Shown: positions 1 through 47,188, counted from the first letter of the stretch. The stretch is DNA of 64,000 nucleotides from Candidatus Moraniibacteriota bacterium (GCA_028688415.1 JAQTYF010000001.1:10385-74384); one strand, 5' to 3'. Translations and numbers: made by a program. Notes: generated from the letters alone by a model not told the origin.

Positions 1-113
1 AGGGGAAGTATAGGGGCTGACACCTGACCAGTGCTGGAACGTTAACGGGAGCGGTGCAAGCCAATCCCCGAAGCGCCAGTGAACGTCGGCGATAACTATA
101 ATCGTCCTAAGGT

Positions 114-384
114 TTCGGAACGCTCGCAAGAGAGTTTCGAAAGGACTGGGACGATTGTAGGAAGTGTGATAAAGAGATAGAAGAGCTGCTTCGTTCTCTA
201 GTAATAGAGAACAGGTCCTAAAAAATACATGGCCATATGCTGGAAATCTGCTTTGCAGACAATCAGCAGGAAAGATTCTTTATTCTTTTATATAAGGATA
301 AAGAAAATCCTCAGAGACTATATGCCATGCTCCTATAGTGAAATATAGGATGAAGATAGAGTCCTTCGCCAAAAAGGAGCGAAA
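114..384 (+). mobile_element. Intervening sequence 1 in 23S rRNA (probable group I intron without ORF). It sits between CCTAAGGT and AGCGAAATTCC, the I-CeuI-type homing site in domain IV.
   Basis: Conserved 23S sequence ...CGTCCTAAGGT stops at 113 and resumes with AGCGAAATTCCTTGTC at 385. The ~270 nt in between have no 23S counterpart. Confidence 0.55.
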
Positions 385-406
385 AGCGAAATTCCTTGTC
401 AGGTAA

Positions 407-1129
407 ATTGTCAGAATTGCCTGAATATCGTGGTAACATGGTATAAGTAACCCGGCTTATAACGGTGAAGCCTAACATCTGCCAATCGGCTGATTATGGT
501 AATACCGTGGGAAGTCCCCTGAGAAGAATCAAAGGGTGACCCCGTAACGACTGATGCGAAAGCAGAGGCCCCCGCCTATTGCGCGGAGGCAACACGCCGG
601 CTCTTATCTAACCCAAAAGAAACATATGGATCTTGCTTCTTACATTTCCGGTTTTGTAGATGGTGAAGGATGCTTTAGTGTATCTTTTACTCTTCGCGCA
701 AAATTGAAAACAGGAATAGAAGTTCGACCGAGTTTTTCGATCGGACAGAATAAGCGCAGTTTGAAACTGTTACAAGAAATAGAACAGTTTTTCAAATGCG
801 GAAGTATACGCTTTTCATCACGTGATAATTGCTATAAGTATGAAACACGAGATATAAGTGAGCTTATGCGGAAAATTATTCCGCACTTTGAAAAATTCCC
901 TCTTCAATCAGATAAAGCGAAAGATTTCAAAATTTTTCGTGATATATGCAAAGAGATATCTACTGCAAAACATCTCAATCCAGAGCATTTGAAACAGATT
1001 ATTCATCTGGCCTATCAAATGAATGGATCGGGAAAAAGGAAATATCCAGAAGCAGAACTCCTACGTGTTCTGGATAAGATGAAGATATAGTCTAATGAAG
1101 CGTGAAAACGTGAGAAGATAATATAAATG
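407..1129 (+). mobile_element. Intervening sequence 2 in 23S rRNA (probable group I intron) carrying a LAGLIDADG homing endonuclease gene
   Basis: 23S block ...TTGTCAGGTAA ends near 406 and continues with AGTTCTGACGCGCATGAAAGGTGTAATGA at about 1130 (equivalent to GGGTAA|GTTCCGACCTGCACGAATGGCGTAATGA). The ~720-bp insert contains ORF 554..1090. Confidence 0.6.
626..1090 (+). CDS. LAGLIDADG-family homing endonuclease (intron-encoded). Likely start is the ATG at 626 (MDLASYISGFVDGEGCF...); the listed ORF begins at 554.
   Basis: N-terminal LAGLIDADG-type motif (SYISGFVDGEGCFSV) and its location inside a 23S rRNA insertion. Size about 155 aa fits single-motif LAGLIDADG enzymes. Confidence 0.75.
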   Translation: MDLASYISGFVDGEGCFSVSFTLRAKLKTGIEVRPSFSIGQNKRSLKLLQEIEQFFKCGSIRFSSRDNCYKYETRDISELMRKIIPHFEKFPLQSDKAKDFKIFRDICKEISTAKHLNPEHLKQIIHLAYQMNGSGKRKYPEAELLRVLDKMKI

Positions 1130-1414
1130 AAGTTCTGACGCGCATGAAAGGTGTAATGACTTGGAAACTGTCTCAACGAACATCCCGGTGAAATTGCAAT
1201 GACGGTAAAGATGCCGTCGACCTACAGCTAGACGAAAAGACCCCATGGAGCTTTACTATAACTTGGTATTGAATTAAAGTTTTTGTTGCCGAGCATAGGT
1301 GGGAGACTATGAAGCACCCCTTCTGGGGGGTGTGGAGTCATCACTGGAATACCACTCTGCAGAGATTTTAATTCTAACCCGCGGCCATTATCTGGTCGGG
1401 GGACAGTGCCTGGT

Positions 1415-1446
<32 letters not shown>

Positions 1447-1668
1447 GTGCAACGGAGGCGTTTACAAAGGTTCTCTAGGTCCGGATGGAAATCGGACCGA
1501 TAGCGCAAAAGCATAAGAGAGCTTTACTGAAAGACCGATCAGTCGATCAGTTACGAAAGTAGAATTTAGTGAACCGACCATTACTCGTAGGAGTGTGGAA
1601 GATCATCAGATAAAAGTTACCCTGGGGATAACAGGCTGATCTTGCCCAAGAGTCCATATCGACGGCAA

Positions 1669-1706
<38 letters not shown>

Positions 1707-1916
1707 GTGGAGAAGCTCCCAAGGGTTTGGCTGTTCGCCAATTAAAGTGGTACGTGAGCTGGGTTCAAACCGTCGTGAGACAGGTTGGTTTCCTATCTGC
1801 TGTAGGCGTGTGTTGCTTGAGAGAACTCTTTCCTAGTACGAGAGGACCGGAAAGAACGAACCTCTGGTGTATCTGCTGTTCCGCCAGGAGCATCGCAGAG
1901 TAGCTACGTTCGGGTA

Positions 1917-1949
<33 letters not shown>

Positions 1950-2261
1950 AAGCTCAAGATAAGGCAACAGTATCAGTTTACTGATACAAAATTTCCTAGA
2001 AGATTACTAGGTTGATAGGCTGCAGATGTAAGTCCCGAGAGGGATTCAGTCAAGCAGTACTAATAAATTTATTCAACTTTCTTTTTTCTAACCTTGTTTT
2101 ATTCTCGCAAGAGAGTAATATGAGTTACGGTTAGCAGTGAAGAGTGCTTGTTAAATGGGGACACAACATTATATATTAGACAGACAATTTGGAGGCCCGC
2201 CTGCAACGCTATGCGTAGCATTGCGGGCAGGGGAATTTCCCATACGTTTTTGAGAGCAGAG

Positions 2262-2376
2262 TATCCGGTGCTTCTAGCGAAGTGGAAACACCTGATCCCA
2301 TACCGAACTCAGCAGTTAAGCACTTCAGCACCGATGGTAGCCTTCAGTGGCAAGAGTAGGACAGTGCCGGGTACTC
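2262..2376 (+). rRNA. rrf: 5S rRNA
   Basis: ...CCTGATCCCATACCGAACTCAGCAGTTAAGCACTTCAGCACCGATGGTAGCC...AGAGTAGGACAGTGCCGGG matches the universal 5S core (CCGAACTCAG..GTGAAAC..GCCGATGGTAG..AGAGTAGG). It sits about 190 nt after the 23S end. Confidence 0.8.
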
Positions 2377-12569: not shown

Positions 12570-14153
12570 CTACTGTATATATTCAAACTTCTCTCGAGAA
12601 AATTGTTTTTTGAGAATCATTCTTTGTACTTTGCCTGTCGATGTCCTCGGTAATTTTTCAGGAGAGAGCGAGAGAAGGTATTTTGGTGCCTCGTATGCTC
12701 CGATGAGGGGTGTATGAGAGAGAATGTTTTTTTTGAGCTTCTTGAATGCCTGATCGGTATCGACATGTTTTTTCCAACAAATGATGGCAGCTACTTCTTC
12801 CCCGTATCGATCATCGACGACACCTATGACATAGACCTGATCGATATCTACCGATACCTTCTTTAGTCTATTTTCTACAGCAGTAGGAGAGATGTTCACG
12901 CCTCCCTTGATGATGATTTCTTTTTTCCTTCCTTTCAAAAAGAAGAACTTTTTTTTATCGATAATTTTGAAATATCCGATATCGCCCGTCAAGAAATATC
13001 CGTTTTGAAAAGCAGGTTCCTTACCTACGTATCCTCGCATAACAGCATCACCTCTTACGATCAATTCTCCCTCTTCATTTTCACCGAGATGTTCTCCTGT
13101 ATTGCTAGCAATCTGGACATCTGCCCACGGCATCGATATACCGATAGAGTTTTCTTCCACAATCTTTTTGTGGAGAGCGGAAGAGAGTGAGAGAGGGACG
13201 CCAGTCACCCGTAGCGCTGTTTCTGTCTGTCCATAACCTTGGTAAAGGGGAATATGGTATGTATCTTCGAATTCGAGGGCACTGTGCGCTATGACTGGGG
13301 CGGAACCGATCTGAATTCTATTGAGCAGGATATCGTTTTTTACGTGCATAAACTCTGATTCACGTACCAATTGATCATATACGATTGATTGAACGATTGA
13401 TGTGATGGTGGATTGTGTTTTACTTACTTGATTCCAGAAGTTTGAGCTGGAATATGTCGGAGGAATAGCAATAGATCCTCCAGAAAGGAGTATAGAGAGA
13501 CAAAATGTTGTCGAATTGATGTGATGAAGAGGAAGATTGACGAGGAAGCGATCAGTATCTCTGATATCGAACCATCGCCGAATACCATCAGCATTGACAA
13601 TCAAATTTTGTAGAGAAAGTTGCGCTCCCTTAGGATGTCCAGTCGTTCCAGAAGTAAAGAGAATGAGAGCAATGTGATCTGGATTCTTCTGTAATATTGG
13701 CAGTTCTTTCTCTGACCGATAAAGAAATCCAGAAAAGATTTCGATACGCACTCCTTCAATCGATGCCTGATCGATTGATTTTTGTATTTTTTCTTGAACG
13801 ATGAGATATTTTGATTGAGTGATGCGTATTTTGTAGGCATAGAGTTCGCCAATGTCATTTTTCGTATCGAGAGGAATGGTGATGATACCCATACTCCATG
13901 CCGACCAACTGAGTATGAGGAGATCGATCGAATTGGTAAAAGCGAGAGCAATACAATCTTTTTCTTTGAGACCAAGGGTCTGTAGATAATGGAGAGCACG
14001 CTCCATTTTTTCGAGCAGTGCTTCATACGAGAGAGTTTCGAGAAGAGACCCGTCTGATGAACAGGACATGAGGGCAATGTTGCGCGGTGATTTTTTAGCT
14101 ACTTCAGAAACGAAAAGGTAGATATTGCTGATTGGATGGAGAGGAATGTTCAT
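12570..14153 (-). CDS. AMP-dependent synthetase/ligase (acyl-CoA or acyl-ACP ligase, FAAL-like candidate starter-loading enzyme). Start taken at MNIPLHP (14153); the ORF extends to 14225.
   Basis: AMP-binding signature LFTSGTTGHPKGAQLS and adenylation-domain architecture. Divergently arranged next to the PKS-like operon. Confidence 0.8.
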   Translation of the reverse strand: MNIPLHPISNIYLFVSEVAKKSPRNIALMSCSSDGSLLETLSYEALLEKMERALHYLQTLGLKEKDCIALAFTNSIDLLILSWSAWSMGIITIPLDTKNDIGELYAYKIRITQSKYLIVQEKIQKSIDQASIEGVRIEIFSGFLYRSEKELPILQKNPDHIALILFTSGTTGHPKGAQLSLQNLIVNADGIRRWFDIRDTDRFLVNLPLHHINSTTFCLSILLSGGSIAIPPTYSSSNFWNQVSKTQSTITSIVQSIVYDQLVRESEFMHVKNDILLNRIQIGSAPVIAHSALEFEDTYHIPLYQGYGQTETALRVTGVPLSLSSALHKKIVEENSIGISMPWADVQIASNTGEHLGENEEGELIVRGDAVMRGYVGKEPAFQNGYFLTGDIGYFKIIDKKKFFFLKGRKKEIIIKGGVNISPTAVENRLKKVSVDIDQVYVIGVVDDRYGEEVAAIICWKKHVDTDQAFKKLKKNILSHTPLIGAYEAPKYLLSLSPEKLPRTSTGKVQRMILKKQFSREKFEYIQ

Positions 14154-14238
14154 ACTGAAGAAAAAAGATAGATGTGTATGAGAACAATGACATATTAAGC
14201 CTAGTATATCACAAAAAACGATCAAAGTATTTGGTGAT

Positions 14239-14264
14239 ATTTCAGTACTTTGCTATACTGAAAT
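14239..14264. promoter_or_regulatory. Inverted repeat ATTTCAGTA-N8-TACTGAAAT overlapping an extended -10 (TGCTATACT) in the divergent ligase/PKS-operon intergenic region
   Basis: 9-bp perfect arms. TATAAT also at 14265-14270. Confidence 0.35.
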
Positions 14265-14284
14265 CGTATAATTTATGAAAAAGT

Positions 14285-14662
14285 ATGAAACAAAAAATTC
14301 TTCTTGAGATTTCGACAGCGTATTTTGTTGTTCTCGCTCTTTCAGTTTCTTTTGTTCCTGAAATTTTTGGATTAGATGTCTCTGGGGATATGCTCAAAAG
14401 ATCTCTTATAGCAATTCTCTTTTTTGTAGCAGGAATTGCAACATTTTTTGTTTCAAGACGAAATGAATCATCTTCTTCAATTCACTTACTCATCTCTTTT
14501 TTTATCTTTCTTTTTACTTCTCTTTCTCTTTTTGGTCTTATAGGTATAGTGTCTGGTTATAACATTGCTCACCCGTTACTCTTTTCTGTGGACGGACTTT
14601 TTCTTGTTATTCATACATCTTTTGCTACAGCTTTTTTCTTTGTTCGTAAGCAATTGCAATAA
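14285..14662 (+). CDS. Hypothetical small integral membrane protein (125 aa)
   Basis: Three to four hydrophobic helices. First gene downstream of the divergent promoter region. Confidence 0.5.
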   Translation: MKQKILLEISTAYFVVLALSVSFVPEIFGLDVSGDMLKRSLIAILFFVAGIATFFVSRRNESSSSIHLLISFFIFLFTSLSLFGLIGIVSGYNIAHPLLFSVDGLFLVIHTSFATAFFFVRKQLQ

Positions 14663-14749
14663 TAATATTTTTCTTCTTTTTTGATACAATGACTTGATAC
14701 TCGTGTATTTATGGTACAAGACATGGTGATATAATCAGAATGATCCGAT

Positions 14750-16819
14750 ATGAAAGAGAGACCGATGTACCAACCAAATGACATCTGTATTGTGGGGAGA
14801 GGTTGTGTCTTGCCAGAAGCATCTCGTCCAGAGGAATTCTGGACAAATATCATCTCAGGTACGTGTTCTATCAGGCAGATGCCAGAGGAAAGGTTTGATA
14901 AGCGTCTTTATTTCAGTCGAGAGAGATTGGCAAAAGATAAGTCGTATTCTTCGTACGCTGGTTTCGTCGATGATGAGGACCTGAAGAAAATCAGTAAACG
15001 TCTTGGTCTCGTATTCTCTCGGAATAGGAGATTGGAGATTATGTCTCTTGAGGCCACAAGACAGGCATTCGCTTGTCTGAAGCAGAAAAGAAAAAAAATA
15101 TTAGAGAATACAACTCTCTTTATTGGCTGTATGGAAGCGAGCGATGGATTTTCGCTTGAGAATTTCTTTGCATTCAATAAAAAATTCTTGAAGCAGTATA
15201 TACAAAAAAGTAATATAAAAAGCAAGAAAAAAGCCTTTGATGCGATAGAGCAATATTTCAATCATGAAGTGGATGATGCTTTACAAATCGATGCTGTATT
15301 AACGACATCTGTTATTGATGTCTTGAAGAAAAAATTTCATTTGAAAGGGGAGGGGGTGCTTGTTGATGCGGCTTGTGCTTCATCTCTGGCAGCAATCGAG
15401 AGTGCTGTGGACGCTCTGAAGAATTATGAGACGGATATGGCCGTAACTGGAGGTATAGAAAGTAATTTACGACCCGATTCATTTGTTTTATTCAGTAAAG
15501 TCGGAGCTCTCTCTGAAAAAAGATGTCTTCCTTTTGATGAACAAACTGACGGATTGTCTCAGGGTGAAGGCGCAGTCATTTTTGTTCTTCAAAGGATGGA
15601 AGATGCTTTGCGAGATGGGAATACCATTTATGGCATCATACGATCAGTAGGAAGTGCGAGCGATGGGAATAGTTCGAGCCTCTTTTCCCCGTCTATAGAA
15701 GGGCAACTCTTGTCGTATGATCGAGCCTATCAAAGTATAGACCCACAGAGTATTGATTATATAGAGTGTCATGGTACGGGTACGAAACTTGGAGATAAGA
15801 CAGAAATCAATTCCCTAAACGCTTTTTTCAAAAAGAAAATACCTATTGGATCAGTGAAATCTCTTGTCGGTCATACCAAAGGATCTGCTGGAGCTGTTGG
15901 TCTTCTCAAATGTTTATTATTGATGGAACAAAAGATTATTCCACCTACTCGATACATTACATCATCGATGGCTCCTCAGAATGGAAATGTGTATGTAAAC
16001 AAAAGACCTCTTTCTTTACGTAAAAAATCTAAACATAAGGCCTTGCGTTGTGGAGTGTCTGCTTTTGGATTTGGTAATATCAACTATCATGTTGTTGTTG
16101 AAGAATGGAAAAAGGAAGGAAAAATAAAGTCTCAATTGATGTTGCAGGAACCAGAAACAATAGTGGTTATAGGGGAGGGAATTGCCGTATACAAAGATAT
16201 CGATTCGGATGTATTGGTCAGACAATTCAATATTCCTCCAAAGAGTATTGCCTCTATAGATAAAATTCAATTACTCGCGCTTTCTGCTGTACAGGATGCT
16301 TTCGAAAAATCTCATATAGCTATTGATTCACTCAAGAAAGAATCGGTTTCTGTTCTCTCTGCTTCTATCATCGGTTTGGAGTCTGCTCTTCATTTCTCTT
16401 ACCGTATTATAACGGCTGAGTTTGAGAAAGTATTCGATCCATCCGATGAAAATATGAAAAAGATGTTTGCAAAGTATAAAGACAGATTCCCTGAAGTCAC
16501 TGAGGATACTGGTCCAGGTATTTTAAACAACGTGATCGCAGGAAGAATATGTAACACTTTCGATTTCAAGGGAAAAAATTTCAATGTTGATGCTGATTTC
16601 AATTCTTTTGCATCAGCACTCAAGCTTGCCAAGAGGGAACTTCAGAAAAATGATGGAATAGTAATACTTGTTTTTTGTCGAGAGAAACTTGATACGGAGA
16701 GAAAATATATACTAAGAAAAGACGAGGTGTCATGTCTTTTATTGACGACGCTTCGTCGGGCAAAAGAAGAAAGCTATCCGATCCAAAAATTGATACAATC
16801 AATCCGATATGATGAATAA
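14750..16819 (+). CDS. Beta-ketoacyl synthase (type I PKS/PUFA-synthase-like KS) followed by a truncated, cysteine-less second KS-like N-terminal fragment (CLF-like)
   Basis: KS N-terminus ICIVGRGCVLPEASRPEEFW, active-site Cys in VDAACASSLAAIESA, catalytic His motifs ECHGTGTKLGD and VGHTKGSAGAVG. The C-terminal ~230 aa repeat the KS N-half pattern (IVVIGEGIAV..., GPGILNNVIAGRICNTFDFKGKNFNVDADFNSFASALKLA) with Cys replaced (DADFNS) and no His-His half. Confidence 0.85.
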   Translation: MKERPMYQPNDICIVGRGCVLPEASRPEEFWTNIISGTCSIRQMPEERFDKRLYFSRERLAKDKSYSSYAGFVDDEDLKKISKRLGLVFSRNRRLEIMSLEATRQAFACLKQKRKKILENTTLFIGCMEASDGFSLENFFAFNKKFLKQYIQKSNIKSKKKAFDAIEQYFNHEVDDALQIDAVLTTSVIDVLKKKFHLKGEGVLVDAACASSLAAIESAVDALKNYETDMAVTGGIESNLRPDSFVLFSKVGALSEKRCLPFDEQTDGLSQGEGAVIFVLQRMEDALRDGNTIYGIIRSVGSASDGNSSSLFSPSIEGQLLSYDRAYQSIDPQSIDYIECHGTGTKLGDKTEINSLNAFFKKKIPIGSVKSLVGHTKGSAGAVGLLKCLLLMEQKIIPPTRYITSSMAPQNGNVYVNKRPLSLRKKSKHKALRCGVSAFGFGNINYHVVVEEWKKEGKIKSQLMLQEPETIVVIGEGIAVYKDIDSDVLVRQFNIPPKSIASIDKIQLLALSAVQDAFEKSHIAIDSLKKESVSVLSASIIGLESALHFSYRIITAEFEKVFDPSDENMKKMFAKYKDRFPEVTEDTGPGILNNVIAGRICNTFDFKGKNFNVDADFNSFASALKLAKRELQKNDGIVILVFCREKLDTERKYILRKDEVSCLLLTTLRRAKEESYPIQKLIQSIRYDE

Positions 16820-19800
16820 AAGTCAGGGGTATTATTACGGTACATATACTGTTTCGATGAAGCCATACTCCGGAGTGGATTTTTCGAGACGATGTTTTAT
16901 TTTTGCTGGTCAAGGATCTACTTTTCCAGGTATGTTTCGTGATGAATATCTCAAATCAATCCTTATCCGTGAGAAGTTCGCGCTTGCAGATAGATTGATG
17001 AGACGATTTCATTTACCCAAGATTTCGGACTATATTATGCATCCCGAGAATTTACAGGAAAAGACATTACCAGTAGTATCCAATATTGCTTTGTTTACAT
17101 TAGAAATGGCTCTTTTTGATATGTTACGAGCATCTCAAATCATTCCAGAAAAAGTAACGGGGCATAGTTTTGGCGAATACTCAGCCCTCGTGGCTTCGGG
17201 TGTCGTATCTTTTGAGGAGATGCTTATGATTATTTATCACCGAGATATCTTTTGTCCGAAAGCGCATACGGCAGGCTTCTTGATAGCAGTGAATGCAGAT
17301 GTACGATACATCAAGGCTGTTTTGAAACATCAAAAATATTTCATTAGCAATATCAATAGTCCGAATCAGACGGTTATTGCCGTCGTTCCTGAATGCGTCG
17401 ATGAAATTGTGGATATTTTTCGAGAAAATGAAACGAAATGCAAAGTTCTGTACGGCGTACCACAGCCATATCATTCCCCGTATCTTCTGAGTTCACAGAA
17501 GAAAATTGAGGCATTTCTTCGGAAGAAGCAATTTACTTTTCGAAAACCGACTATACCATTTTTTTCTTCGGTATTGAAAAAGGAAATCAATCAGCAAAAT
17601 TTTCGAAAAAGTGATATTGAGAAGATTCTCTGCACCCAGATTACAACTCAAGTGAACTTTATCTATCAGGTACGATCAATGTATAATTTAGGATGTTTTT
17701 CTTTTTTGGAAATCGGTCCGAAAAAAATATTCTCTGTCTTTGTCGAAGATATTTTGGCAGAGAAAAAACAGTCAGTAAAAACAGAATGTATACAATCTTT
17801 TTTTCAAAAAGAACAGAAAGCGAATACGGCAGGAAAAAATGTGAAAAATGCAAAATTATTCACAATTATATGTAAAACTATTAGAGAGATAACGGGATAT
17901 GAGATAAAAAGTATTCATCCCAATGGAAGATTCCAGGAAGATTTTGGGATAGATTCTATCAAGAGAACGGACATTCTTCTGACTATTTTTCGGAGATTAA
18001 AAATATCTCTCGGTGATGATTTTAATACGTCTCATTTCAAGAGTATTGATGATGTTATCTTATACATTGAAACAATACAAAAAAAATCTTTGTCATCGAT
18101 ACAAGATACCGAGACAAAGAAGGTGCATAAAAAAAGAAAAACAGAATTCCAAAGATATGCTTTTCTTCCAGTAACAGAAGAGCTTTCTATTGCTTCTTCT
18201 CAATGTTCGAGAGACGATCGAGCTAACCTGTTTGTTTTAGACATCGAGAATATTTTTGAATCTGATAGTGTTGTTTTGAAACGATGGTTTTCTTTCGTAA
18301 GGAGGGTAGTTGATAAAAATCAGACATTTACTCTCGTGATACGAGCACAAGATATACAGTGGGAGTATAAAAAAATGTTGTCCCTCTTTCAATTCTTCCG
18401 AGGTTTTTTACAGCCAATCAAACAGAGTACATTTTGTTGTTTGTGCCTTTCATTTGGATCGGAACAGAGTATTGCCGTTTCCAGTCTTGCATCTTTCCTG
18501 AAATCTCTCAAAAGAGAATTTTCAGGAATGTTCTTTCGATATGTTCATAGTGATGCAGTGAAAGATTTTAAGGAGTTTCTTCCCGAGAAAGAGGGAATGA
18601 ATGGAGATGACATTGTATATACACGAGGGAAGAGATATCGCATGCAACCAGTTTTGATACAAAATAATCCAATTATCCCTTTCAAAAAAGATGCTGTCAT
18701 AATAGTGATCGGAGGAGCGAGCGGAATTACTTTTTCTCTCATAAAGCATATCGCAAAAGAGGAAAAGCCGATTTTCTACGTGATCGGTCGTAGGAATGAA
18801 CAAGAAAAGATCATACGCGAACATATACGTATACTCAAAAAATATACGCCACATGTTTTTTATGTTTCATTGGACGCTCGTGACAAAGTTGCTCTGGAGA
18901 AGGTGTGGAAACGTGTTATGCGAGAACAGAAACGAATTGATTATGTAATCAATGGTGCAGGTACAGTCGATATTGATTTTTTTGACCAGAAAACAGAGCT
19001 TTCAATAGAGTCCGAATTTTGTAATAAAGTGGTACCGACATTGAATGTTTTGCAATTGGCTCTGAAATATCATCCAAAAAGAGTTATCAATTTTGCATCA
19101 ATCATCTCGCGGTATGGGAGTGCTGGTCAAAGTATCTATACCGCAGCCAATGCATGGGTGAGTGAGATGACTCAGAAATACGGTAAAGAATTAGAGAAAT
19201 ATGGTTCGGTGGCAACGGCTATTCATTGGCCAGCTTGGGAGAATACGGGTATGACAGCAGAAAAAAGCGTTTCTCAGAAATTGGATGAATACGAAGTGTC
19301 ATTGCTTGATCCAGATGATGCGAATCGATTGTTTGCCCTTGATCTCTCATTGCAGAAGAGTGGACCAGTCTATTATTTGGATGCATCGGATGATAGCGCC
19401 TTATCCTTTCCTTCTAATAATTTCATAAAATACGCACCGATTCTTGGCTCACCCTCTGACTTGTCTTCACTGACTTTTTCTCAGAATATTTTCAGGAAAA
19501 GTTTTCATACGACGAGCGATAAGTGGCTCAGAGATCATAAAATACAGGGAGCAATGTATGTTCCTTTGGCAATTGGCATAGGAATGTTTCTGTGTTTGGG
19601 AAAAATGTATTGGAAGAAAGTTCCTCTATTGAAAAATATTTCTGCACAGAATCCTCTTATAGTAAGAAAGGCTGTGGTGGAATGTACACTCGAACGGAAG
19701 AATGTTGATAATAAGAATACTCTTTCTTTGAAATCAGATGTATCTTATTTTTCCGCCGAAGAAATCAAGGAGGAAAAAGAAGAACAAAAGTTATTTTGTA

Positions 19801-20252
19801 TAATCAAAAAAAATGGTACAAAAATATCAAAAAAGGATATTTACGATTTCTTTGAAAAAGAAACAAGAATATCATTTGGACCCACCTTTCAGACATTGCA
19901 GGCAGTGTGGAAAAATGAAGACGGTTCTTCTTGTGCTGTCATTGATACTGCCAAGCTTCTTCCGATATTTGGAATAGAAACTTTCGACAGACTGATTCAG
20001 TGGATCGATGCTTCTTTTCAGATGCTCGGGCTACAATCTGCGGATCAACAAAGAACTTTTGTGCTTCCGATTAGTATTGATTGGATGAAATATTATGAAG
20101 AGATCGAAAAAACACGCTTTGTATACCCGGTACTTTTGTCTTTTACTCCTACCGAAACAGGTGTGCGTGGTGATGTCTCTGTCGTAAACGAAAAAGGAGA
20201 AGTTATCCTTGAAATGAAGGGCATTTTTCTTCGCAAAGGAAGTTTTTCTTGA
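16809..20252 (+). CDS. Multidomain PKS-like protein: acyltransferase, ACP, ketoreductase and dehydratase (AT-ACP-KR-DH)
   Basis: AT motifs FAGQGSTFPGM and GHSFGEYSA (GHSxG). ACP with DFGIDSIKRTDIL (DSL-type Ser). KR Rossmann IVIGGASGITFS and YTAANAW. DH motif LRDHKIQGAMYVPLA (HxxxGxxxxP). Overlaps the KS gene by 11 nt. Confidence 0.85.
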   Translation: MMNKSQGYYYGTYTVSMKPYSGVDFSRRCFIFAGQGSTFPGMFRDEYLKSILIREKFALADRLMRRFHLPKISDYIMHPENLQEKTLPVVSNIALFTLEMALFDMLRASQIIPEKVTGHSFGEYSALVASGVVSFEEMLMIIYHRDIFCPKAHTAGFLIAVNADVRYIKAVLKHQKYFISNINSPNQTVIAVVPECVDEIVDIFRENETKCKVLYGVPQPYHSPYLLSSQKKIEAFLRKKQFTFRKPTIPFFSSVLKKEINQQNFRKSDIEKILCTQITTQVNFIYQVRSMYNLGCFSFLEIGPKKIFSVFVEDILAEKKQSVKTECIQSFFQKEQKANTAGKNVKNAKLFTIICKTIREITGYEIKSIHPNGRFQEDFGIDSIKRTDILLTIFRRLKISLGDDFNTSHFKSIDDVILYIETIQKKSLSSIQDTETKKVHKKRKTEFQRYAFLPVTEELSIASSQCSRDDRANLFVLDIENIFESDSVVLKRWFSFVRRVVDKNQTFTLVIRAQDIQWEYKKMLSLFQFFRGFLQPIKQSTFCCLCLSFGSEQSIAVSSLASFLKSLKREFSGMFFRYVHSDAVKDFKEFLPEKEGMNGDDIVYTRGKRYRMQPVLIQNNPIIPFKKDAVIIVIGGASGITFSLIKHIAKEEKPIFYVIGRRNEQEKIIREHIRILKKYTPHVFYVSLDARDKVALEKVWKRVMREQKRIDYVINGAGTVDIDFFDQKTELSIESEFCNKVVPTLNVLQLALKYHPKRVINFASIISRYGSAGQSIYTAANAWVSEMTQKYGKELEKYGSVATAIHWPAWENTGMTAEKSVSQKLDEYEVSLLDPDDANRLFALDLSLQKSGPVYYLDASDDSALSFPSNNFIKYAPILGSPSDLSSLTFSQNIFRKSFHTTSDKWLRDHKIQGAMYVPLAIGIGMFLCLGKMYWKKVPLLKNISAQNPLIVRKAVVECTLERKNVDNKNTLSLKSDVSYFSAEEIKEEKEEQKLFCIIKKNGTKISKKDIYDFFEKETRISFGPTFQTLQAVWKNEDGSSCAVIDTAKLLPIFGIETFDRLIQWIDASFQMLGLQSADQQRTFVLPISIDWMKYYEEIEKTRFVYPVLLSFTPTETGVRGDVSVVNEKGEVILEMKGIFLRKGSFS

Positions 20253-20884
20253 AAAAAGATATGAGAAACCTCTTTTCATCACGAGGAAATATGAATCTAC
20301 TGCGTTGTCTCGCTCAGCCAACGAGAATATTTCGTCATCAGGGATGGGATATAGAGAAGCAACGTTCGATAGCTGATTTTTTGGTATACATTCTTTCGGG
20401 AGAAGAACTCAAGCATTCGGAGACCGGAAGACCGATAATCAACGACTTCACCGATGTGTCGATTTCACATAAACCGCACTATATCGTTGTCGCTACGATC
20501 CAGTCTCCGTATAAGATTGGAATTGATATTGAATACCTCTTGACGGATATACAAACAGTGTTCTTTATCGGTCCAGTAATCAAAAAGAACGAACAGTTTG
20601 TACTGGATTGTTTCTGCAGAGAAAATAACCTTTCCTATTCTTCTGGAGTAATCGCTTTTTGGTCTCTCAAAGAATCTTTCTTCAAATGTCTTGATGTTGA
20701 TATGAAACCTGCTCAGATTTTTGTATCGCGGATTTATAATGAGAAAGTATTTTTTTCTTTTTCAAACTCTATCAAAGAATGTATGAAGGAAAGAAAAATA
20801 CAGTTTGAATATGCTACAATAGAAATTCGAGGGGAATATGTCCTGACACAGACGATTATGTGTGAGATGAAAAAATATGAATAA
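20249..20884 (+). CDS. 4'-phosphopantetheinyl transferase (Sfp/EntD type)
   Basis: PPTase motifs IGIDIEYL (GxDxE) and WSLKESFFKCL (WxxKEa..K). 4-nt overlap with the upstream gene. Confidence 0.75.
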   Translation: MKKDMRNLFSSRGNMNLLRCLAQPTRIFRHQGWDIEKQRSIADFLVYILSGEELKHSETGRPIINDFTDVSISHKPHYIVVATIQSPYKIGIDIEYLLTDIQTVFFIGPVIKKNEQFVLDCFCRENNLSYSSGVIAFWSLKESFFKCLDVDMKPAQIFVSRIYNEKVFFSFSNSIKECMKERKIQFEYATIEIRGEYVLTQTIMCEMKKYE

Positions 20885-21905
20885 AAATATGCCGTCACAA
20901 TATCGTTGGCAAACACTCGATATTATCAAAACTATCGGATGTCTTGGAGCTATTTTTAGCCATATATTGATATGGCAATTTGGCACCACTCATCGTGGTG
21001 TAGGTATAGATCTGTATGATATGAATGCTGTTTCTTGGCCGATACTTACTTTTTGTTTCGTGATAGTGCACATTCTCTTTCTTTCAGCAGGAGCGTCTTT
21101 TTATTTTTATATTGAGAAATATCACCCTTCAATGCGTCAAGTTGGTACTCGATTGATACCTATTATCCTTCTGGGATTTCTTTTTGGTCTCAATTATCAC
21201 CCGTTTATTCTGTATTGGAATGTTTTTTTCTTTTATACTCTTTCTATCCTCACTCTTTTTTTCTTACAGCGTTTTTTCGGATATACGATTATTTTTCTTG
21301 TCACTTCACTGACGCTTTTTCTCACACCATTGCTCCGCATGTTTTTCGATGATGGATTTTTGGAAAATTATTTTATCACCTTTTTCTTTACTGATGCACA
21401 GAATACTATCAATTTCTATCCATTTTTCCCGTTCTTTTCTCTGATCGGATTTGGATTTCTCACGAGTCATATCTATTACACGTATCAGAAAAAGAAGTTA
21501 TTCATACGAAGCCTCGCCTCCGGGACGTTGGCATTATTCTTCCTCACCCTAATCCTAGAACGAGTGGATGTCTCTGATATCTTTGGCGTAACAGCCCATC
21601 TCCCTATACGTTTTCTTCTCCTAACCATTGCTTTTTTTGTTGTAATTCTCTCTCTCATCGAGCTGATTGCTCATGGCAGAATGATAACGAAAAAATACCA
21701 CCCATTGGTGATTATCGGACGACATATTCTCCCCGTGTATGTCTTGACCCTTTTGAGCTCACTAGTTTTCTTGAATTTTTTCCAACGACTGAGTTTTTAT
21801 AACAAAGAGAGTATAGGAGTTTTTCTTTTTTCTCTTTTCATAACATTTGATATTGCGTATGCGATAGCGGTGATACTCACATATCGGAACAGGCAGAATG
21901 CCTAG
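20877..21905 (+). CDS. Polytopic membrane protein, probable acyltransferase-3 (OafA/OatA-like) family
   Basis: About 10 TM helices. N-terminal R-x3-LD-x2-K-x-I-G-x3-A-x4-H pattern (RWQTLDIIKTIGCLGAIFSHI) typical of AT3-family membrane O-acyltransferases. Overlaps the PPTase stop. Confidence 0.45.
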   Translation: MNKNMPSQYRWQTLDIIKTIGCLGAIFSHILIWQFGTTHRGVGIDLYDMNAVSWPILTFCFVIVHILFLSAGASFYFYIEKYHPSMRQVGTRLIPIILLGFLFGLNYHPFILYWNVFFFYTLSILTLFFLQRFFGYTIIFLVTSLTLFLTPLLRMFFDDGFLENYFITFFFTDAQNTINFYPFFPFFSLIGFGFLTSHIYYTYQKKKLFIRSLASGTLALFFLTLILERVDVSDIFGVTAHLPIRFLLLTIAFFVVILSLIELIAHGRMITKKYHPLVIIGRHILPVYVLTLLSSLVFLNFFQRLSFYNKESIGVFLFSLFITFDIAYAIAVILTYRNRQNA

Positions 21906-21960
21906 TGCACATTTTCTTTGTTTGGTATATACTATACATGTATTCGTAACAGCAATCTTT

Positions 21961-23013
21961 ATGAAAAAAAGTTTCTTTGCCATTTTCTTTGTATTGGTTT
22001 TTGCAGTAAGCATAGGTATGCCTCAGCCAGTGCATGCTGGTGGTGTCGTCGATGCAATCGTGGATGCGGTGACGAATGTTGTTGCGATAGCCGCTGGTGT
22101 CGTACAGGGCTCATTGTCACTTATTAGTGGGGGGAGTTTCTCTGATGGATATGCTCAGGGATTCTGCAGTGTATCGAGTAATGGGAATGGGATATTCAGT
22201 CCTGGAGGGTGTCAGAATGCGGGAGGGCAAATTGTTTCGTCTACAGGAGTTCCATGTGTAGCGAATTACAATGTTGCATGTATTGCCACTAATGCTTGTG
22301 GAACAACTAATAGCGGTACATATGATTGTGTAGGTACGTGTACTGCTGTCGCCCCACCAATGCCCCCTAATCAAGGAGCTTCTTGTGATTCTGCTCAAAA
22401 TAATTGTGGATCGAAAAATGTAGGCACTATGAACTGTGGAGTATGTTCTGCTGTTGCTCCTGCTGATGCGTGGTTTTATCCTGGAGTTGCTTGTCTCTCC
22501 GCTCCGAACCAATGTGGTATGCAAAATGCCAATGGAACGTATAATTGCTTGGGACAATGTGCTGGGTCAACCTCTCCTTCACCAGCTCTCTGCTCCTCAT
22601 ACAATACCAATAAACCAACAGTATCACTGACAGCAAATCCGCTCGTACGTACATCGGCAGGATCGACCACTCTCACATGGACCGTAGGCAATGCAACGAG
22701 TTGTCGTCATTCAAGTAGTGATACCTCTATCTGGTCTGATGCACCAATAACCCCCGCTAACGATTCAGCTAACGTCTCTGTTACAGCTCCTACTACCTCT
22801 TTCACCATCTCCTGTTCGAATGCCTCAGGAGTAACCAACAGAACGGTATATGTCAAAGTTCAGAATGATTGTTCTCCTCTCGATTGTGGAGGCACAGCAA
22901 AATCTGATCAAGTGTGTGTAGGGAAACGATACAATGACATAAAAGGTTGTGGCGTGAATAACTGTACCGGTACCCGTTATTGTGACTTCAATTGGAAAGA
23001 GACGGCGTTGTAA
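21961..23013 (+). CDS. Secreted cysteine-rich repeat protein (signal peptide, then three or more CG..N.GTY.C.G.C.AVAP modules and an S/T-rich C-terminal domain). Start taken at MKKSFF (21961).
   Basis: Signal-peptide-like MKKSFFAIFFVLVFAVSIGMPQPVHA. Repeats CGTTNSGTYDCVGTCTAVAP / CGSKNVGTMNCGVCSAVAP / CGMQNANGTYNCLGQCAGS. Confidence 0.55.
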   Translation: MKKSFFAIFFVLVFAVSIGMPQPVHAGGVVDAIVDAVTNVVAIAAGVVQGSLSLISGGSFSDGYAQGFCSVSSNGNGIFSPGGCQNAGGQIVSSTGVPCVANYNVACIATNACGTTNSGTYDCVGTCTAVAPPMPPNQGASCDSAQNNCGSKNVGTMNCGVCSAVAPADAWFYPGVACLSAPNQCGMQNANGTYNCLGQCAGSTSPSPALCSSYNTNKPTVSLTANPLVRTSAGSTTLTWTVGNATSCRHSSSDTSIWSDAPITPANDSANVSVTAPTTSFTISCSNASGVTNRTVYVKVQNDCSPLDCGGTAKSDQVCVGKRYNDIKGCGVNNCTGTRYCDFNWKETAL

Positions 23014-23029: not shown

Positions 23030-23359
23030 ATGTCAGAAAAGATAGTACAAATAATGATAATGATTTTATTGTTAAGTATCACGCTCTTTGTCATGACACT
23101 TGTTTTTGTTGTTCTAATGAGACCGACGACAATGATTGAAACAGTCTCTCCTTTGCCTGTTTCTGATCTGCCTATGATACAGATTTCTCCAGAAATCGAT
23201 CAGCAGACGTCTCCGAATCCAGCATTGTATTCTGATGATGCAGATTTACGAATCATTGACGAGCAGGTGCGACGAGGAGTATTGACACCTGAAGAGGCGA
23301 AACAACGATTACAGGAAATTGTCAAGCAAAAAAGTAATACCGTTTCCACAACGCCATAG
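23030..23359 (+). CDS. Hypothetical small membrane-anchored protein
   Basis: N-terminal TM helix (IMIMILLLSITLFVMTLVFVVLM). 109 aa. Confidence 0.45.
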   Translation: MSEKIVQIMIMILLLSITLFVMTLVFVVLMRPTTMIETVSPLPVSDLPMIQISPEIDQQTSPNPALYSDDADLRIIDEQVRRGVLTPEEAKQRLQEIVKQKSNTVSTTP

Positions 23360-23388
23360 AGGTAAAAGATTTTCTGACTGAGCATCCA

Positions 23389-24030
23389 ATGATATACAAG
23401 ATACTTATTGCCGTTCTCGTGATACTTCTGCTTGTTGGGGGATTTTTTTCGTATCAGCGTTTTTCACAGAGAGATGTTCCGACGGAGACTCTGGCTCCAG
23501 TAGTGATCGAGAAAACTCCTTCTATAAAGAAGGTAGTCCCACCAAAAAAAGATCCAGAAGACACGCTCGCACTCTTTGGAGTTGCCAATTATGAAAGTGA
23601 AAATTTCCGTGTCGGAGATATCGCTATCGGAGGGGAATCAGAGTTCCTCCTTTCTGAAGATACTCCTGATCCGCTCACGATTACTGAGATTCGTGGTGAG
23701 GCATTTACGGAGAAGAATAAACCAGAAGTGAAACTCGTCATCACATGGAAAACAAACAAGCTTGCCAAATCAAATATTGCTTATTCGAAGGGTGTTGGTC
23801 AACCCAAGAAAACAGTCAATGAGGTAGACTATACGACCAATCATAGTCTGATTCTTCCTGGTCTTGATCAATCTTCGACATACCTCTACACTATCGTCTC
23901 TGATGATCGATTTGGCAATACAGCAACAAGCGATCAGCATGCTATCTATACGGGATCAAAGTCCGTCTCTCTCTTTGATTTGATAGCTGGAGCGGTAGGT
24001 GACGTCTTTGGTTGGGCTGCTCCCAAATAG
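23389..24030 (+). CDS. Hypothetical membrane-anchored protein (213 aa)
   Basis: N-terminal TM helix (ILIAVLVILLLVGGFF), then a soluble domain. Confidence 0.5.
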   Translation: MIYKILIAVLVILLLVGGFFSYQRFSQRDVPTETLAPVVIEKTPSIKKVVPPKKDPEDTLALFGVANYESENFRVGDIAIGGESEFLLSEDTPDPLTITEIRGEAFTEKNKPEVKLVITWKTNKLAKSNIAYSKGVGQPKKTVNEVDYTTNHSLILPGLDQSSTYLYTIVSDDRFGNTATSDQHAIYTGSKSVSLFDLIAGAVGDVFGWAAPK

Positions 24031-46320: not shown

Positions 46321-46394
46321 TGGGCCGTTAGCTCAGTTGGTTAGAGCACCGCATTTGCAATGCGGGGGTCGTCGGTTCGAATCCGACACGGTCC
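46321..46394 (+). tRNA. tRNA-Ala (anticodon TGC), with G3:U70
   Basis: GGGCCGTTAGCTCAGTTGGTTAGAGCACCGCATTTGCAATGCGGGGGTCGTCGGTTCGAATCCGACACGGTCCA. Confidence 0.9.
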
Positions 46395-47125: not shown

Positions 47126-47188
47126 TTGAGTAGTGAAGAAAAATATAATGAAGAGCGAGTGTTCATCGTTTTGTTATGAACTATCTCT

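What the first reader, a model, noticed from the sequence alone, without database searches (positions are those of the whole stretch)
12570..23013. Compact type-I-PKS / PUFA-synthase-like operon (ligase, KS-KS°, AT-ACP-KR-DH, PPTase, membrane acyltransferase, secreted Cys-rich protein) in a minimal CPR-like genome
Seen directly: a ketosynthase with an intact Cys-His-His triad (DAACASSL, ECHGTGT, VGHTKGS); a second ORF with AT (GQGST, GHSFG), ACP (GIDSI), KR (GGASGITFS, YTAANAW) and DH (HKIQGAMYVP = HxxxGxxxxP) motifs; an Sfp-type PPTase (GIDIE, WSLKESFFK); and a divergently transcribed AMP-binding ligase (TSGTTGHPKG). Gene overlaps of 11, 4 and 8 nt indicate one translationally coupled operon. 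The operon continues into a probable AT3-family membrane O-acyltransferase and a secreted Cys-rich repeat protein. Established knowledge: this is the minimal domain set for iterative reduced polyketide or fatty-acyl chain synthesis, and the ligase could act as a FAAL-type starter loader. No enoylreductase is present, so an unsaturated or hydroxylated chain is predicted. Inference: CPR-like genomes normally lack fatty-acid and polyketide synthesis, so a self-contained acyl-chain assembly line linked to a membrane acyltransferase and an exported protein could be an undescribed surface lipidation or glycolipid pathway. GDP-mannose genes flank the region.
Basis: partly seen in the sequence, partly recalled or inferred. 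Interest (0 to 1): 0.85.

Follow-up and report, generated by a model that had tools for sequence, protein, structure and literature searches.

The report
Compact polyketide-lipid cassette with membrane acyltransferase
A tiny symbiotic-type bacterium that should not be able to make lipid chains carries a self-contained four-gene kit (a split polyketide synthase, its activating enzyme and a dedicated membrane acyltransferase) that also turns up in nano-archaea and predatory bacteria and has not been described.

Summary

The conserved unit is four genes (14750-21905):
- a KS carrying a degenerate half-KS tail;
- an AT-ACP-KR-DH protein;
- an Sfp-type PPTase;
- a polytopic membrane protein with the AT3/HGSNAT acyltransferase fold.

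The KS/AT-ACP-KR-DH pair recurs in 29 loci, and the membrane protein accompanies it in 27 of them. Hosts include Patescibacteria, DPANN archaea (one contig also carries TBP and MCM), Bdellovibrionota and others.

The KS forms its own clade (200/200 bootstraps). It groups with PUFA, heterocyst-glycolipid and enediyne synthase KSs, away from FabF/FabB. No enoylreductase and no thioesterase is encoded.

The ligase is not FAAL-like. It belongs to a family found across CPR genomes that elsewhere sits among housekeeping genes. The ligase, the Cys-rich protein and the GDP-mannose genes are neighbours with native GC content, not conserved parts.

Best reading: an iterative synthase builds an unsaturated or hydroxylated acyl chain, and the membrane acyltransferase releases it onto a membrane or surface acceptor. 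The release step is inferred, not shown. I found no description of this cassette in the searchable literature.

The parts
14750..16819 (+). Ketosynthase protein (689 aa). It has an active KS (residues 10-401, about 14777-15952), a KS C-terminal extension, and a conserved degenerate half-KS domain (residues about 504-686, about 16259-16807).
   Evidence: Pfam. Cys209/His341/His375 are invariant. hhalign of the C-terminal domain against the KS N-half gives 95.6% probability, E 1e-8, with Cys replaced by Phe. The AF2 model matches the actinorhodin CLF, KSQ and FabF, TMq 0.5-0.59. The motif VTEDTGPGILNNVIAGR is nearly invariant.
16809..20252 (+). AT-ACP-KR-DH protein (1147 aa). AT about 16896-17864, single ACP about 17868-18020, KR about 18696-19241, double-hotdog DH about 19461-20237. 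It overlaps the KS gene by 11 nt.
   Evidence: Pfam. Motif conservation in 24 homologues. Collinear with the enediyne synthase SgcE, residues 577-884 and 1197-1524.
20249..20884 (+). Sfp-type 4'-phosphopantetheinyl transferase (211 aa; an alternative ATG start lies at about 20261).
   Evidence: Pfam ACPS 1.4e-6, above the cut-off. Found with the PKS pair in 15 loci.
20877..21905 (+). Polytopic membrane protein (342 aa) with the AT3/HGSNAT transmembrane acyltransferase fold. It is the conserved fourth component. It overlaps the PPTase gene by 8 nt.
   Evidence: Present in 27 of 29 family loci, usually abutting the KS start. Full-length but weak Acyl_transf_3 match; 7 of 8 homologues hit PF01757 and 3 of 8 hit HGSNAT_cat. 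The AF2 model (pLDDT 78, pTM 0.81) has human HGSNAT as its ten best PDB matches, probability 1.0, TMq 0.53-0.61. A K18-X10-H29 motif in TM1 is conserved.
14285..14662 (+). Small membrane protein (125 aa, about 4 TM helices) between the ligase and the KS. Membership is uncertain.
   Evidence: A collinear but non-significant match (24% identity, E 0.6) to the 134-aa ORF at the same position in L001. Low GC of 0.325. No family hits.
12570..14225 (-). Adenylate-forming acyl-CoA-ligase-like enzyme, divergently transcribed. Probably a native neighbour rather than a dedicated part.
   Evidence: Pfam. PDB relatives are all CoA ligases. The family is CPR-wide. Housekeeping context elsewhere. Background GC of 0.415. 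Adjacent to the cassette only in the window and L001.
21898..23013 (+). Secreted Cys-rich repeat protein (likely start 21961). An adjacent native gene, not a conserved part.
   Evidence: Homologue found only in the Moranbacteria locus L001. GC of 0.460. No family hits. NCBI start at M22.

Best explanation
The core of the finding (14750-21905, perhaps from 14285) is a self-contained accessory cassette that appears to spread horizontally. It has four genes.

1. A ketosynthase with a Cys-less half-KS tail.
2. An AT-ACP-KR-DH protein.
3. An Sfp-type PPTase that activates the single ACP.
4. A membrane protein of the AT3/HGSNAT acyltransferase fold.

Proposed mechanism:
- The AT loads malonyl units onto the ACP. 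It has the FabD-type Arg and a YHS motif.
- The single KS extends the chain, iteratively if the product is longer than one unit.
- KR and DH process each beta-keto group.
- With no ER encoded, the chain stays unsaturated (polyenoyl) or beta-hydroxylated.
- No thioesterase, reductase or condensation release domain is present. The one universally co-inherited partner, the AT3-fold membrane protein, therefore most likely takes the finished acyl chain at the cytoplasmic face. Its conserved TM1 Lys-X10-His motif would then pass the chain to an acceptor in or beyond the membrane, giving a specialised lipid or a lipidated surface molecule.

Shown: the gene content, the intact motifs, the fold assignments, the co-occurrence and the separate KS clade.
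Inferred: iterative use, the nature of the product, release by the membrane protein, and the acceptor.

The ligase, the Cys-rich protein and the GDP-mannose genes are probably bystanders.
For: - Domains and motifs.
- The same KS/AT-ACP-KR-DH pair is found in 29 loci. The AT3-like gene accompanies it in 27, often overlapping the KS start. The PPTase is present in 15.
- AT3/HGSNAT assignment.
- The membrane-protein family is small and specific: 118 representatives among 1.8 billion.
- No TE or ER was found in any cluster ORF or in the CPR/DPANN loci examined.
- One Parcubacteria locus carries BC-BCCP, carboxyltransferase, a BirA-like gene and an ABC exporter divergently next to the cassette, which amounts to its own malonyl-CoA supply.
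- The Bdellovibrionota versions add CrtD/CrtI-like desaturases, OlsE-like lipid hydroxylases, a fatty-acid desaturase and halogenase-like flavoproteins. All of these act on long hydrophobic chains.
- KS clade: family 200/200, and family plus Pfa/Hgl/SgcE apart from FabF/FabB 200/200.
- The core genes are 4-10 GC points below their flanks in three CPR genomes.
Against: - No biochemical or expression data exist.
- The window's membrane protein does not itself reach Pfam significance (E 0.33).
- Known AT3/HGSNAT enzymes mostly move acetyl from acetyl-CoA, not long chains from an ACP. That statement is from my own knowledge.
- The AT3-like protein could instead tailor or export the product.
- No acceptor gene is conserved.
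- No malonyl-CoA source is visible in the 64-kb window.
- An ER or a releasing enzyme could be encoded elsewhere in the genome.
- Two family loci lack the membrane gene within the DNA available.
- The KS tree is neighbour-joining with few references and contains no modular PKS.
Confidence: 0.55

Rival explanations
1. The synthase makes a diffusible secondary metabolite (a conjugated polyene or a relative of the enediyne/polyyne type). The chain would be released by hydrolysis or by an enzyme encoded elsewhere. The AT3-fold protein would then be a tailoring O-acyltransferase, an immunity factor or an export factor.
For: - The gene order KS, AT-ACP-KR-DH, PPTase matches the domain order of the enediyne synthase SgcE, and the alignment is collinear.
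- Homologues of SgcE5 (UnbU) and SgcE4 (UnbV) lie beside the family PKS in four Bdellovibrionota loci.
- Halogenase-like genes lie beside it in L003, L010 and L042.
Against: - The CPR and DPANN loci have no UnbU, UnbV, DUF1702 or hot-dog TE homologues.
- The KS never groups with SgcE (0/200).
- The accessory genes are lipid-type enzymes.
- The membrane protein, not a TE, is the constant partner.
Confidence: 0.2
2. The full seven-gene pathway. The ligase would load a fatty-acyl starter in the manner of a FAAL. The PKS would extend it. The AT3 protein would attach the chain to the adjacent secreted Cys-rich protein or to a mannose glycolipid.
For: - The ligase and a Cys-rich homologue flank the cassette in both Moranbacteria genomes, even though the outer flanks differ.
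- PMI, ManC and PMM genes lie within 15 kb.
Against: - The ligase resembles CoA ligases, not FAALs.
- Its family is found throughout CPR and sits in housekeeping contexts elsewhere.
- The ligase and the Cys-rich gene have native GC, unlike the core.
- Neither gene is found with the cassette in the other 27 loci.
- The mannose genes are separated from the cluster by housekeeping genes and are absent from the L001 flanks.
Confidence: 0.1
3. A replacement fatty-acid synthase or elongase that supplies bulk membrane acyl chains to an organism lacking FAS II. In this reading the membrane protein would act as the glycerolipid acyltransferase.
For: - CPR genomes lack complete lipid synthesis pathways (PMC7242380).
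- An ACC set lies next to the cassette in L005.
- A PlsC-type acyltransferase lies near it in the archaeal locus L042.
Against: - No ER is encoded.
- The cassette is rare: 5 Patescibacteria among 185,579 species representatives matched.
- Its low GC marks it as an accessory island.
- It also occurs in Bdellovibrionota, which I expect to have their own FAS II. That is from my own knowledge and was not tested.
Confidence: 0.1
4. An artefact: a mis-binned or chimeric fragment, or a decaying relic with no function.
For: The GC dip across the core genes.
Against: - The cassette lies inside a contiguous stretch that carries CPR-type rRNA with an intron, tRNAs and housekeeping genes.
- An identical sequence was recovered in an independent assembly.
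- The same arrangement occurs in a 767-kb Moranbacteria contig.
- All catalytic motifs are intact and conserved.
Confidence: 0.03

Closest known systems
PUFA synthase PfaA and the wider 'secondary lipid' Pfa/Hgl synthases
   Same: - The domain order KS, AT, ACP, KR, PKS-type DH.
- The best NCBIfam hit for the KS is TIGR02813 PfaA (6e-82, full-length KS).
- The best single-domain PDB match is the PfaC KS-CLF of Moritella (6riw; my identification of the chain name 'ORF10').
- A PPTase is encoded alongside.
- The KS groups with Pfa/Hgl-type KSs, away from FabF/FabB.
   Different: - The synthase is split into two proteins.
- It has one ACP instead of a tandem array.
- There is no PfaC (FabA-type DH), no PfaD (ER) and no PfaB.
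- It scores far below the family cut-off (275 against 1010 bits).
- Its KS forms a separate clade (200/200).
- It has a half-KS tail and an AT3-fold membrane partner that Pfa clusters lack.
Enediyne polyketide synthase PKSE (SgcE of C-1027) and its UnbL/UnbV/UnbU/TE cassette
   Same: - The order KS-AT-ACP-KR-DH-PPTase.
- No ER.
- Collinear alignment with SgcE (KS 201 bits; AT and KR-DH segments).
- UnbU-like and UnbV-like genes lie next to family members in four Bdellovibrionota loci.
   Different: - Three separate proteins rather than one.
- No hot-dog TE and no DUF1702 anywhere. No UnbU or UnbV in the CPR and DPANN loci.
- The PPTase shows no detectable similarity to the SgcE C-terminus.
- The KS never pairs with SgcE in bootstraps (0/200).
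- The constant partner is an AT3-fold protein rather than the RnfD-like UnbU.
AT3 / HGSNAT transmembrane acyltransferases
   Same: - Polytopic fold.
- A TM1 basic-X10-His motif.
- Weak but consistent Pfam matches.
- Human HGSNAT as the top structural match.
   Different: - A divergent small family of 118 representatives.
- No SGNH or other fused domain.
- Genetically tied to a PKS, so the likely donor is a long polyketide acyl chain rather than acetyl-CoA. This last point is inference.
Type II PKS KS/CLF and PfaC/HglC KS-CLF pairs
   Same: A second, Cys-less KS-like module follows the active KS. Its best structural match is the actinorhodin chain-length factor.
   Different: Only the N-terminal half of the thiolase fold is present (about 200 aa). 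It is fused to the KS, and its own motif (VTEDTGPGILNNVIAGR) is more conserved than most of the protein. Its function is unknown.

Membership tests
Type I PKS / FAS-like megasynthase (general) | KS with a Cys-His-His triad, an AT with GHSxG, and a phosphopantetheine carrier with a DS motif | tested here: met
   Pfam hits above the cut-offs. Residues are invariant or conserved in homologues.
PUFA synthase PfaA (TIGR02813) | Score at or above the curated family cut-off (1010 bits), with tandem ACPs | tested here: not met
   275 bits for the KS protein and 149 bits for the AT-ACP-KR-DH protein. Only one PP-binding domain.
PUFA synthase system (pfaABCD) | Partner genes PfaC (KS-CLF with FabA-type DH) and PfaD (enoylreductase) | tested here: not met
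   No such domains in the cluster ORFs, among the ORFs scanned across the 64-kb window (about 50, all of those over about 200 aa), or in the conserved neighbours of related loci. The rest of the genome was not available.
PUFA / Hgl / enediyne-type KS supergroup | The KS groups with these synthases rather than with FabF/FabB | tested here: met
   NJ tree: 200/200 against E. coli FabF/FabB. BLAST gives 163-237 bits to Pfa/Hgl KSs and 201 to SgcE, against 91-100 to FabF/FabB. No modular PKS references were included.
Enediyne PKSE cassette | A single PKSE polypeptide together with a hot-dog TE, UnbL (DUF1702), UnbV and UnbU | tested here: not met
   BLAST of the SgcE2/3/4/5/10 proteins finds nothing in the window or in the CPR/DPANN loci. 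UnbU and UnbV homologues occur only in L022, L024, L026 and L030.
Heterocyst glycolipid synthase (Hgl) | The HglE/HglD/HglC [KS-CLF-AT] set with a reductase and a glycosyltransferase, and a KS inside the Hgl clade | tested here: not met
   The Chrysosporum locus L036 has a different architecture, and its KSs fall outside the family clade. The HglC architecture is taken from PMC3098273.
AT3 / HGSNAT clan (the membrane protein) | Significant match to PF01757 or PF07786 | tested here: inconclusive
   The window protein scores E 0.33 and 1. Among its homologues, 7 of 8 hit PF01757 (best 1.5e-4) and 3 of 8 hit HGSNAT_cat (best 9.7e-6). The orthologue in L043 carries an unmarked HGSNAT_cat hit.
AT3 / HGSNAT clan (the membrane protein) | The polytopic fold and a TM1 basic-X10-His motif | tested here: met
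   Foldseek: the top 10 matches are HGSNAT, probability 1.0, TMq 0.53-0.61, and the next hits have TM about 0.2. The K18...H29 motif is conserved in the wider family. The motif definition is recalled from the literature.
AT3 / HGSNAT clan (the membrane protein) | Acyl transfer across the membrane to an acceptor | not testable with these tools
   This needs biochemistry.
Fatty acyl-AMP ligase (FAAL) for the ligase | Closest relatives are FAALs, the gene is dedicated to a PKS/ACP partner, and the FAAL-specific insertion is present | tested here: not met
   All 31 PDB relatives at E<=1e-20 are CoA ligases or adenylation domains, and none is named as a FAAL. The alignment to FadD13 runs full length (query 11-519 against chain 18-512). 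Orthologues sit in housekeeping contexts. The insertion itself was not mapped residue by residue.
Sfp-type PPTase | An ACPS-superfamily match, a length of about 200-240 aa, and the WxxKES motif | tested here: met
   Pfam ACPS scores 28.8 bits against a cut-off of 25. The protein is 211 aa and contains WSLKESFFK.

The most novel reading that the evidence does not exclude
The AT3/HGSNAT-fold protein is a new kind of polyketide chain-release enzyme. It would take the finished unsaturated acyl chain from the synthase and carry it through the membrane onto a surface acceptor. This would give ultra-small episymbionts (CPR bacteria, DPANN archaea) and predatory Bdellovibrionota a shared, horizontally exchanged way of making a specialised surface lipid, possibly used in contact with host or prey cells.
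Probability: 0.3. Interest if true: 0.85.

Novelty: new variant of a known kind. Interest (0 to 1): 0.68.

Why it matters
CPR bacteria and DPANN archaea are thought to depend on hosts for lipids (PMC7242380 for CPR). Four things follow if this reading is right.

- A self-contained acyl-chain assembly line, in one genome with its own acetyl-CoA carboxylase, shows that some of these organisms can make at least one specialised lipid themselves.
- The obligatory pairing of a release-domain-less PKS with an AT3-fold membrane protein points to a chain-termination route that has not been described for polyketide or fatty-acid synthases.
- The same cassette on a bacterial CPR contig and on an archaeal contig next to TBP and MCM is a clear case of cross-domain sharing of a lipid pathway.
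- The link to UnbU/UnbV genes in Bdellovibrionota may also shed light on how enediyne-type synthases arose.

The cassette is only about 7 kb, which makes it practical to express and test.

Tried and rejected
- Self-BLAST of the KS tail against the KS N-half was not significant. The relationship only appeared with profile comparison and fold search.
- Pfam and NCBIfam gave nothing significant for the window's membrane protein, the 125-aa protein or the Cys-rich protein.
- NCBIfam gave nothing for the Bdellovibrionota UnbU/UnbV-like and other accessory ORFs.
- Promoter and terminator scans matched the shuffled expectation, so they say nothing about operon boundaries.
- The afdb50 fold library was unavailable.
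- Seven literature searches for this cassette in CPR, DPANN or Bdellovibrionota found nothing relevant. The papers I opened did not mention it. An eighth search located the 2011 secondary-lipid survey, which has no Bdellovibrio or CPR type.
- Ligase as a malonyl-CoA synthetase: suggested by the ACC set occupying the equivalent position in L005. MatB is only a mid-ranking relative and the ligase family is CPR-wide, so I left this as a minor possibility.
- I also rejected FabF-type FAS II, a true PUFA synthase, an enediyne cluster and a heterocyst-glycolipid cluster. The membership tests give the reasons.

Full report
**1. Where the window comes from**

The window begins inside a 23S rRNA gene. 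That gene is interrupted by a group I intron carrying a LAGLIDADG endonuclease ORF, and a 5S rRNA gene follows. The rest of the window is housekeeping: FtsW, RNase J, TrpRS, GroEL, PilB, RelA, TopA, DprA, ABC transporters and six tRNAs. About 50 ORFs were scanned, including all of those over about 200 aa, and none is a fab gene.

The 342-aa membrane protein is 100% identical to a protein that NCBI assigns to a Candidatus Moranbacteria MAG (GCA_028699965.1, contig JAQVTP010000005.1). The same sequence was assembled independently from a public read set. The CPR attribution therefore rests on physical linkage, not on binning alone.

**2. The observation**

Pfam confirms each domain:

| ORF | Domain | E-value |
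|---|---|---|
| 12570-14225(-) | AMP-binding | 9e-56 |
| 14750-16819 | KS N-terminal / C-terminal | 4e-52 / 3e-30 |
| 16809-20252 | AT | 2e-24 |
| 16809-20252 | PP-binding | 2e-4 (just above the cut-off) |
| 16809-20252 | KR | 3e-21 |
| 16809-20252 | PKS_DH_N / PS-DH | 2.5e-8 / 2e-11 |
| 20249-20884 | ACPS | 1.4e-6 |

- KS Cys209, His341 and His375 are invariant in 16 homologues.
- The AT, ACP, KR and DH catalytic motifs are conserved in 24 homologues. These include the FabD-type Arg, the HxxxGxxxxP histidine and the [DE]xxxQ motif.
- The 11-nt and 8-nt overlaps are real.
- The 4-nt overlap and the overlap with the Cys-rich ORF depend on the choice of start codon. NCBI starts the Cys-rich gene at M22, which gives a standard signal peptide.

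**3. Two corrections to the anatomy**

*The 'KS°'.* This is only half a ketosynthase. Residues about 504-686 align to the N-terminal half of the KS itself (hhalign 95.6%, E 1e-8), with Phe in place of the catalytic Cys. An AF2 model of this domain (pLDDT 76) matches KS folds, and the actinorhodin chain-length factor ranks first. Its motif VTEDTGPGILNNVIAGR is among the most conserved stretches of the protein. The domain is therefore under selection, although its role is unknown. Docking onto the separately encoded AT protein and a CLF-like role are both possible.

*The 342-aa membrane protein.* It has no significant Pfam hit of its own. Several lines of evidence nevertheless place it in the AT3/HGSNAT clan:
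- It matches Acyl_transf_3 end to end, at E 0.33.
- Seven of its 8 close homologues hit PF01757, and 3 of 8 hit HGSNAT_cat.
- Orthologues in other loci carry precomputed HGSNAT_cat hits.
- Its AF2 model (pLDDT 78, pTM 0.81) has human HGSNAT as its ten best PDB matches, at probability 1.0 and TMq 0.53-0.61. The next hits have a TM-score near 0.2.
- A Lys-X10-His motif in the first helix is conserved across the wider family.

**4. What is conserved elsewhere**

I used the family-specific half-KS domain as the query and scanned one genome per species (185,579 species). This returned 33 loci. Together with the look-ups, they give 29 non-redundant loci that hold the same KS plus AT-ACP-KR-DH pair:
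- 5 Patescibacteria, plus the window;
- a Woesearchaeota MAG;
- a MAG labelled Methanosarcinales;
- Lentisphaerales, Nitrospinia and Opitutales;
- about 20 Bdellovibrionota, Bacteriovoracaceae and Oligoflexia.

Findings from these loci:
- The AT3-like gene is present in 27 of the 29. It usually lies immediately upstream of the KS, with abutting or overlapping codons. It is absent from 5 ordinary PfaA/Hgl-type loci that the scan also picked up.
- The PPTase is present in 15 loci.
- In one locus the two PKS proteins are fused (L022, 1843 aa).
- A Nanoarchaeota contig carries the cassette directly next to RNase P p30, TBP, MCM and an eIF gene. The archaeal occurrence is therefore physically anchored.
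- The membrane-protein family is small: 118 representatives at E<=1e-3 among 1.8 billion.

**5. What is not conserved**

*The ligase and the Cys-rich protein.* Both accompany the cassette only in the two Moranbacteria genomes.

*The ligase in more detail.*
- Its closest solved relatives are oxalyl-CoA synthetase, FadD13, MenE and MatB, and no FAAL appears.
- It belongs to a family found throughout CPR at 53-68% identity. Most members are about 750 aa and carry an uncharacterised C-terminal extension.
- In three other CPR genomes the orthologue sits among carAB, uvrC and ddl, with no PKS nearby.

*GC content.*

| Gene(s) | GC |
|---|---|
| Four core genes | 0.365-0.387 |
| 125-aa ORF | 0.325 |
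| Ligase | 0.415 |
| Cys-rich gene | 0.460 |
| Rest of the window | 0.425 |

The same dip is seen in L001 and L043. The simplest reading is that the cassette was inserted between two native genes in a Moranbacteria ancestor.

*The GDP-mannose genes.* They are real, but housekeeping genes separate them from the cluster, and they are absent from the L001 flanks.

**6. Relationship to known synthases**

- NCBIfam ranks PfaA first for the KS (275 bits, far below the 1010-bit cut-off), with FabF at 166 bits.
- Apart from a two-KS bimodule chain (7zma) whose top score sums several matched stretches, the best PDB match is the PfaC-type KS-CLF 6riw. Type I PKS KSs follow.
- A plasmid search found the C-1027 enediyne synthase SgcE among the most collinear hits.
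- Direct BLAST against SgcE gives 201 bits for the KS and collinear AT and KR-DH segments. It finds no match for the PPTase or the membrane protein.

I built a neighbour-joining tree with 200 bootstraps:

| Grouping | Bootstrap support |
|---|---|
| Family monophyletic | 200/200 |
| CPR sequences monophyletic | 194/200 |
| CPR plus DPANN | 125/200 |
| Family with Pfa/Hgl/SgcE, apart from E. coli FabF/FabB | 200/200 |
| Family pairing with SgcE | 0/200 |

The branching order among the family, Pfa/Hgl and SgcE is unresolved. The cassette is therefore a distinct lineage inside the PUFA/Hgl/enediyne-type group.

Caveats: the tree is distance-based, uses few references and contains no modular PKS.

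**7. Clues to the product**

- No ER, TE, thioester reductase or condensation domain is encoded in the window cluster or in the CPR/DPANN loci examined.
- One Parcubacteria locus carries biotin carboxylase-BCCP, carboxyltransferase, a BirA-like gene and an ABC exporter divergently next to the KS. That is a private malonyl-CoA supply.
- The Bdellovibrionota versions add CrtD/CrtI-like desaturases, OlsE-like lipid hydroxylases (up to four in tandem), a fatty-acid desaturase and halogenase-like flavoproteins. All of these act on long hydrophobic chains.
- Four Bdellovibrionota loci also hold homologues of the enediyne proteins UnbU (RnfD-like) and UnbV (FG-GAP/ASPIC).

**8. Most likely mechanism**

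- The AT loads malonyl units onto the single ACP, which the PPTase has activated.
- The KS elongates the chain, iteratively if the product is longer than one unit.
- KR and DH act in each round. Without an ER the chain stays polyunsaturated or beta-hydroxylated. Enediyne synthases with the same domain set behave this way, which is established knowledge that I recall and did not test.
- No release domain exists, and the AT3-fold protein is the one constant partner. That protein is therefore the best candidate for taking the chain off the synthase and passing it to an acceptor in or across the membrane.

The gene content, motifs, folds, co-occurrence and phylogeny are shown. Iteration, the product, the release role and the acceptor are inferred.

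**9. Rival explanations**

- A diffusible polyene or enediyne-like metabolite, with the membrane protein acting as a tailoring or export factor.
- A bulk fatty-acid synthase.
- An assembly artefact.

The evidence for and against each is given in the Rival explanations section.

**10. Novelty**

- Seven full-text searches for this cassette in CPR, DPANN or Bdellovibrionota found no description.
- The 2011 survey of secondary lipid synthases does not include these lineages.
- CPR bacteria are reported to lack complete lipid pathways (PMC7242380).

I rate this as a new variant of a known kind: an iterative type I synthase of the PUFA/enediyne type, but with a split architecture, a half-KS module and a dedicated AT3-fold membrane partner. 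It is rare and patchy in CPR, and it is shared across domains.

Noticed in passing
window 1-2372: The partial 23S rRNA (model positions 1836-2925 spread over 2085 nt) is interrupted by a group I intron (169-379). An ORF at 554-1090 is a LAGLIDADG homing endonuclease (Pfam 3.5e-28). A 5S rRNA follows at 2264-2372.
   Followed up: partly
L005:1868-7402 (Parcubacteria MAG CAIWCR010000009.1): Biotin carboxylase-BCCP, a BirA-like biotin ligase, carboxyltransferase and an ABC exporter lie divergently next to the same PKS cassette. This is an acetyl-CoA carboxylase set in a CPR genome that appears dedicated to the synthase.
   Followed up: partly
L042:1763-21780 (Nanoarchaeota MAG GCA_030697845.1): The cassette (AT3-like, an 839-aa halogenase-like protein, KS, AT-ACP-KR-DH, PPTase) sits directly beside RNase P p30, TBP, MCM and an eIF gene on an archaeal contig. 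A PlsC-type acyltransferase lies 3.5 kb upstream.
   Followed up: partly
L022:8022-13000, L024:3648-6386, L026:302-3664, L030:8351-11560: In four Bdellovibrionota loci, homologues of the enediyne-cassette proteins SgcE5/UnbU (RnfD-like) and SgcE4/UnbV (FG-GAP plus UnbV_ASPIC) flank the family PKS. In L024 they are fused. No DUF1702 or hot-dog TE is present.
   Followed up: partly
L018:2789-6117; L021:10256-12553: The Bacteriovoracaceae versions carry a CrtD/CrtI-like desaturase. L021 has one OlsE-like fatty-acid hydroxylase gene next to the cassette, and L018 has four paralogues of that family in tandem.
   Followed up: partly
window 12570-14225 (-); L039-L041:8001-10247: The ligase belongs to a very conserved family found across CPR (53-68% identity between classes). 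Most members are about 750 aa and have a C-terminal extension of about 220 aa with no Pfam match, and they often sit next to ddl. The window copy lacks the extension. The family's function is unknown.
   Followed up: partly
window 21961-23013: A secreted protein with three Cys-rich repeats (C..CG..N.GT..C.G.C), an Ig-like middle part and a Cys-rich C-terminal end. It matches no family. Its only homologue is a 732-aa protein in the other Moranbacteria genome.
   Followed up: no
L022:967-6498: In one Bdellovibrionales MAG the KS-half-KS and AT-ACP-KR-DH proteins are fused into a single 1843-aa ORF. This shows that the split is not universal.
   Followed up: no
window 46322-47358: A cluster of five tRNA genes (Ala-TGC, Ile-GAT, Met, Met, Asp) lies far from the rRNA genes. 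Ala and Ile tRNAs usually sit in the 16S-23S spacer.
   Followed up: no
window 23030-24030: Two small membrane-anchored ORFs (109 and 213 aa) follow the Cys-rich gene. The second has a weak match to the N-terminal domain of purple acid phosphatase (E 4e-4). Neither is conserved with the cassette.
   Followed up: no
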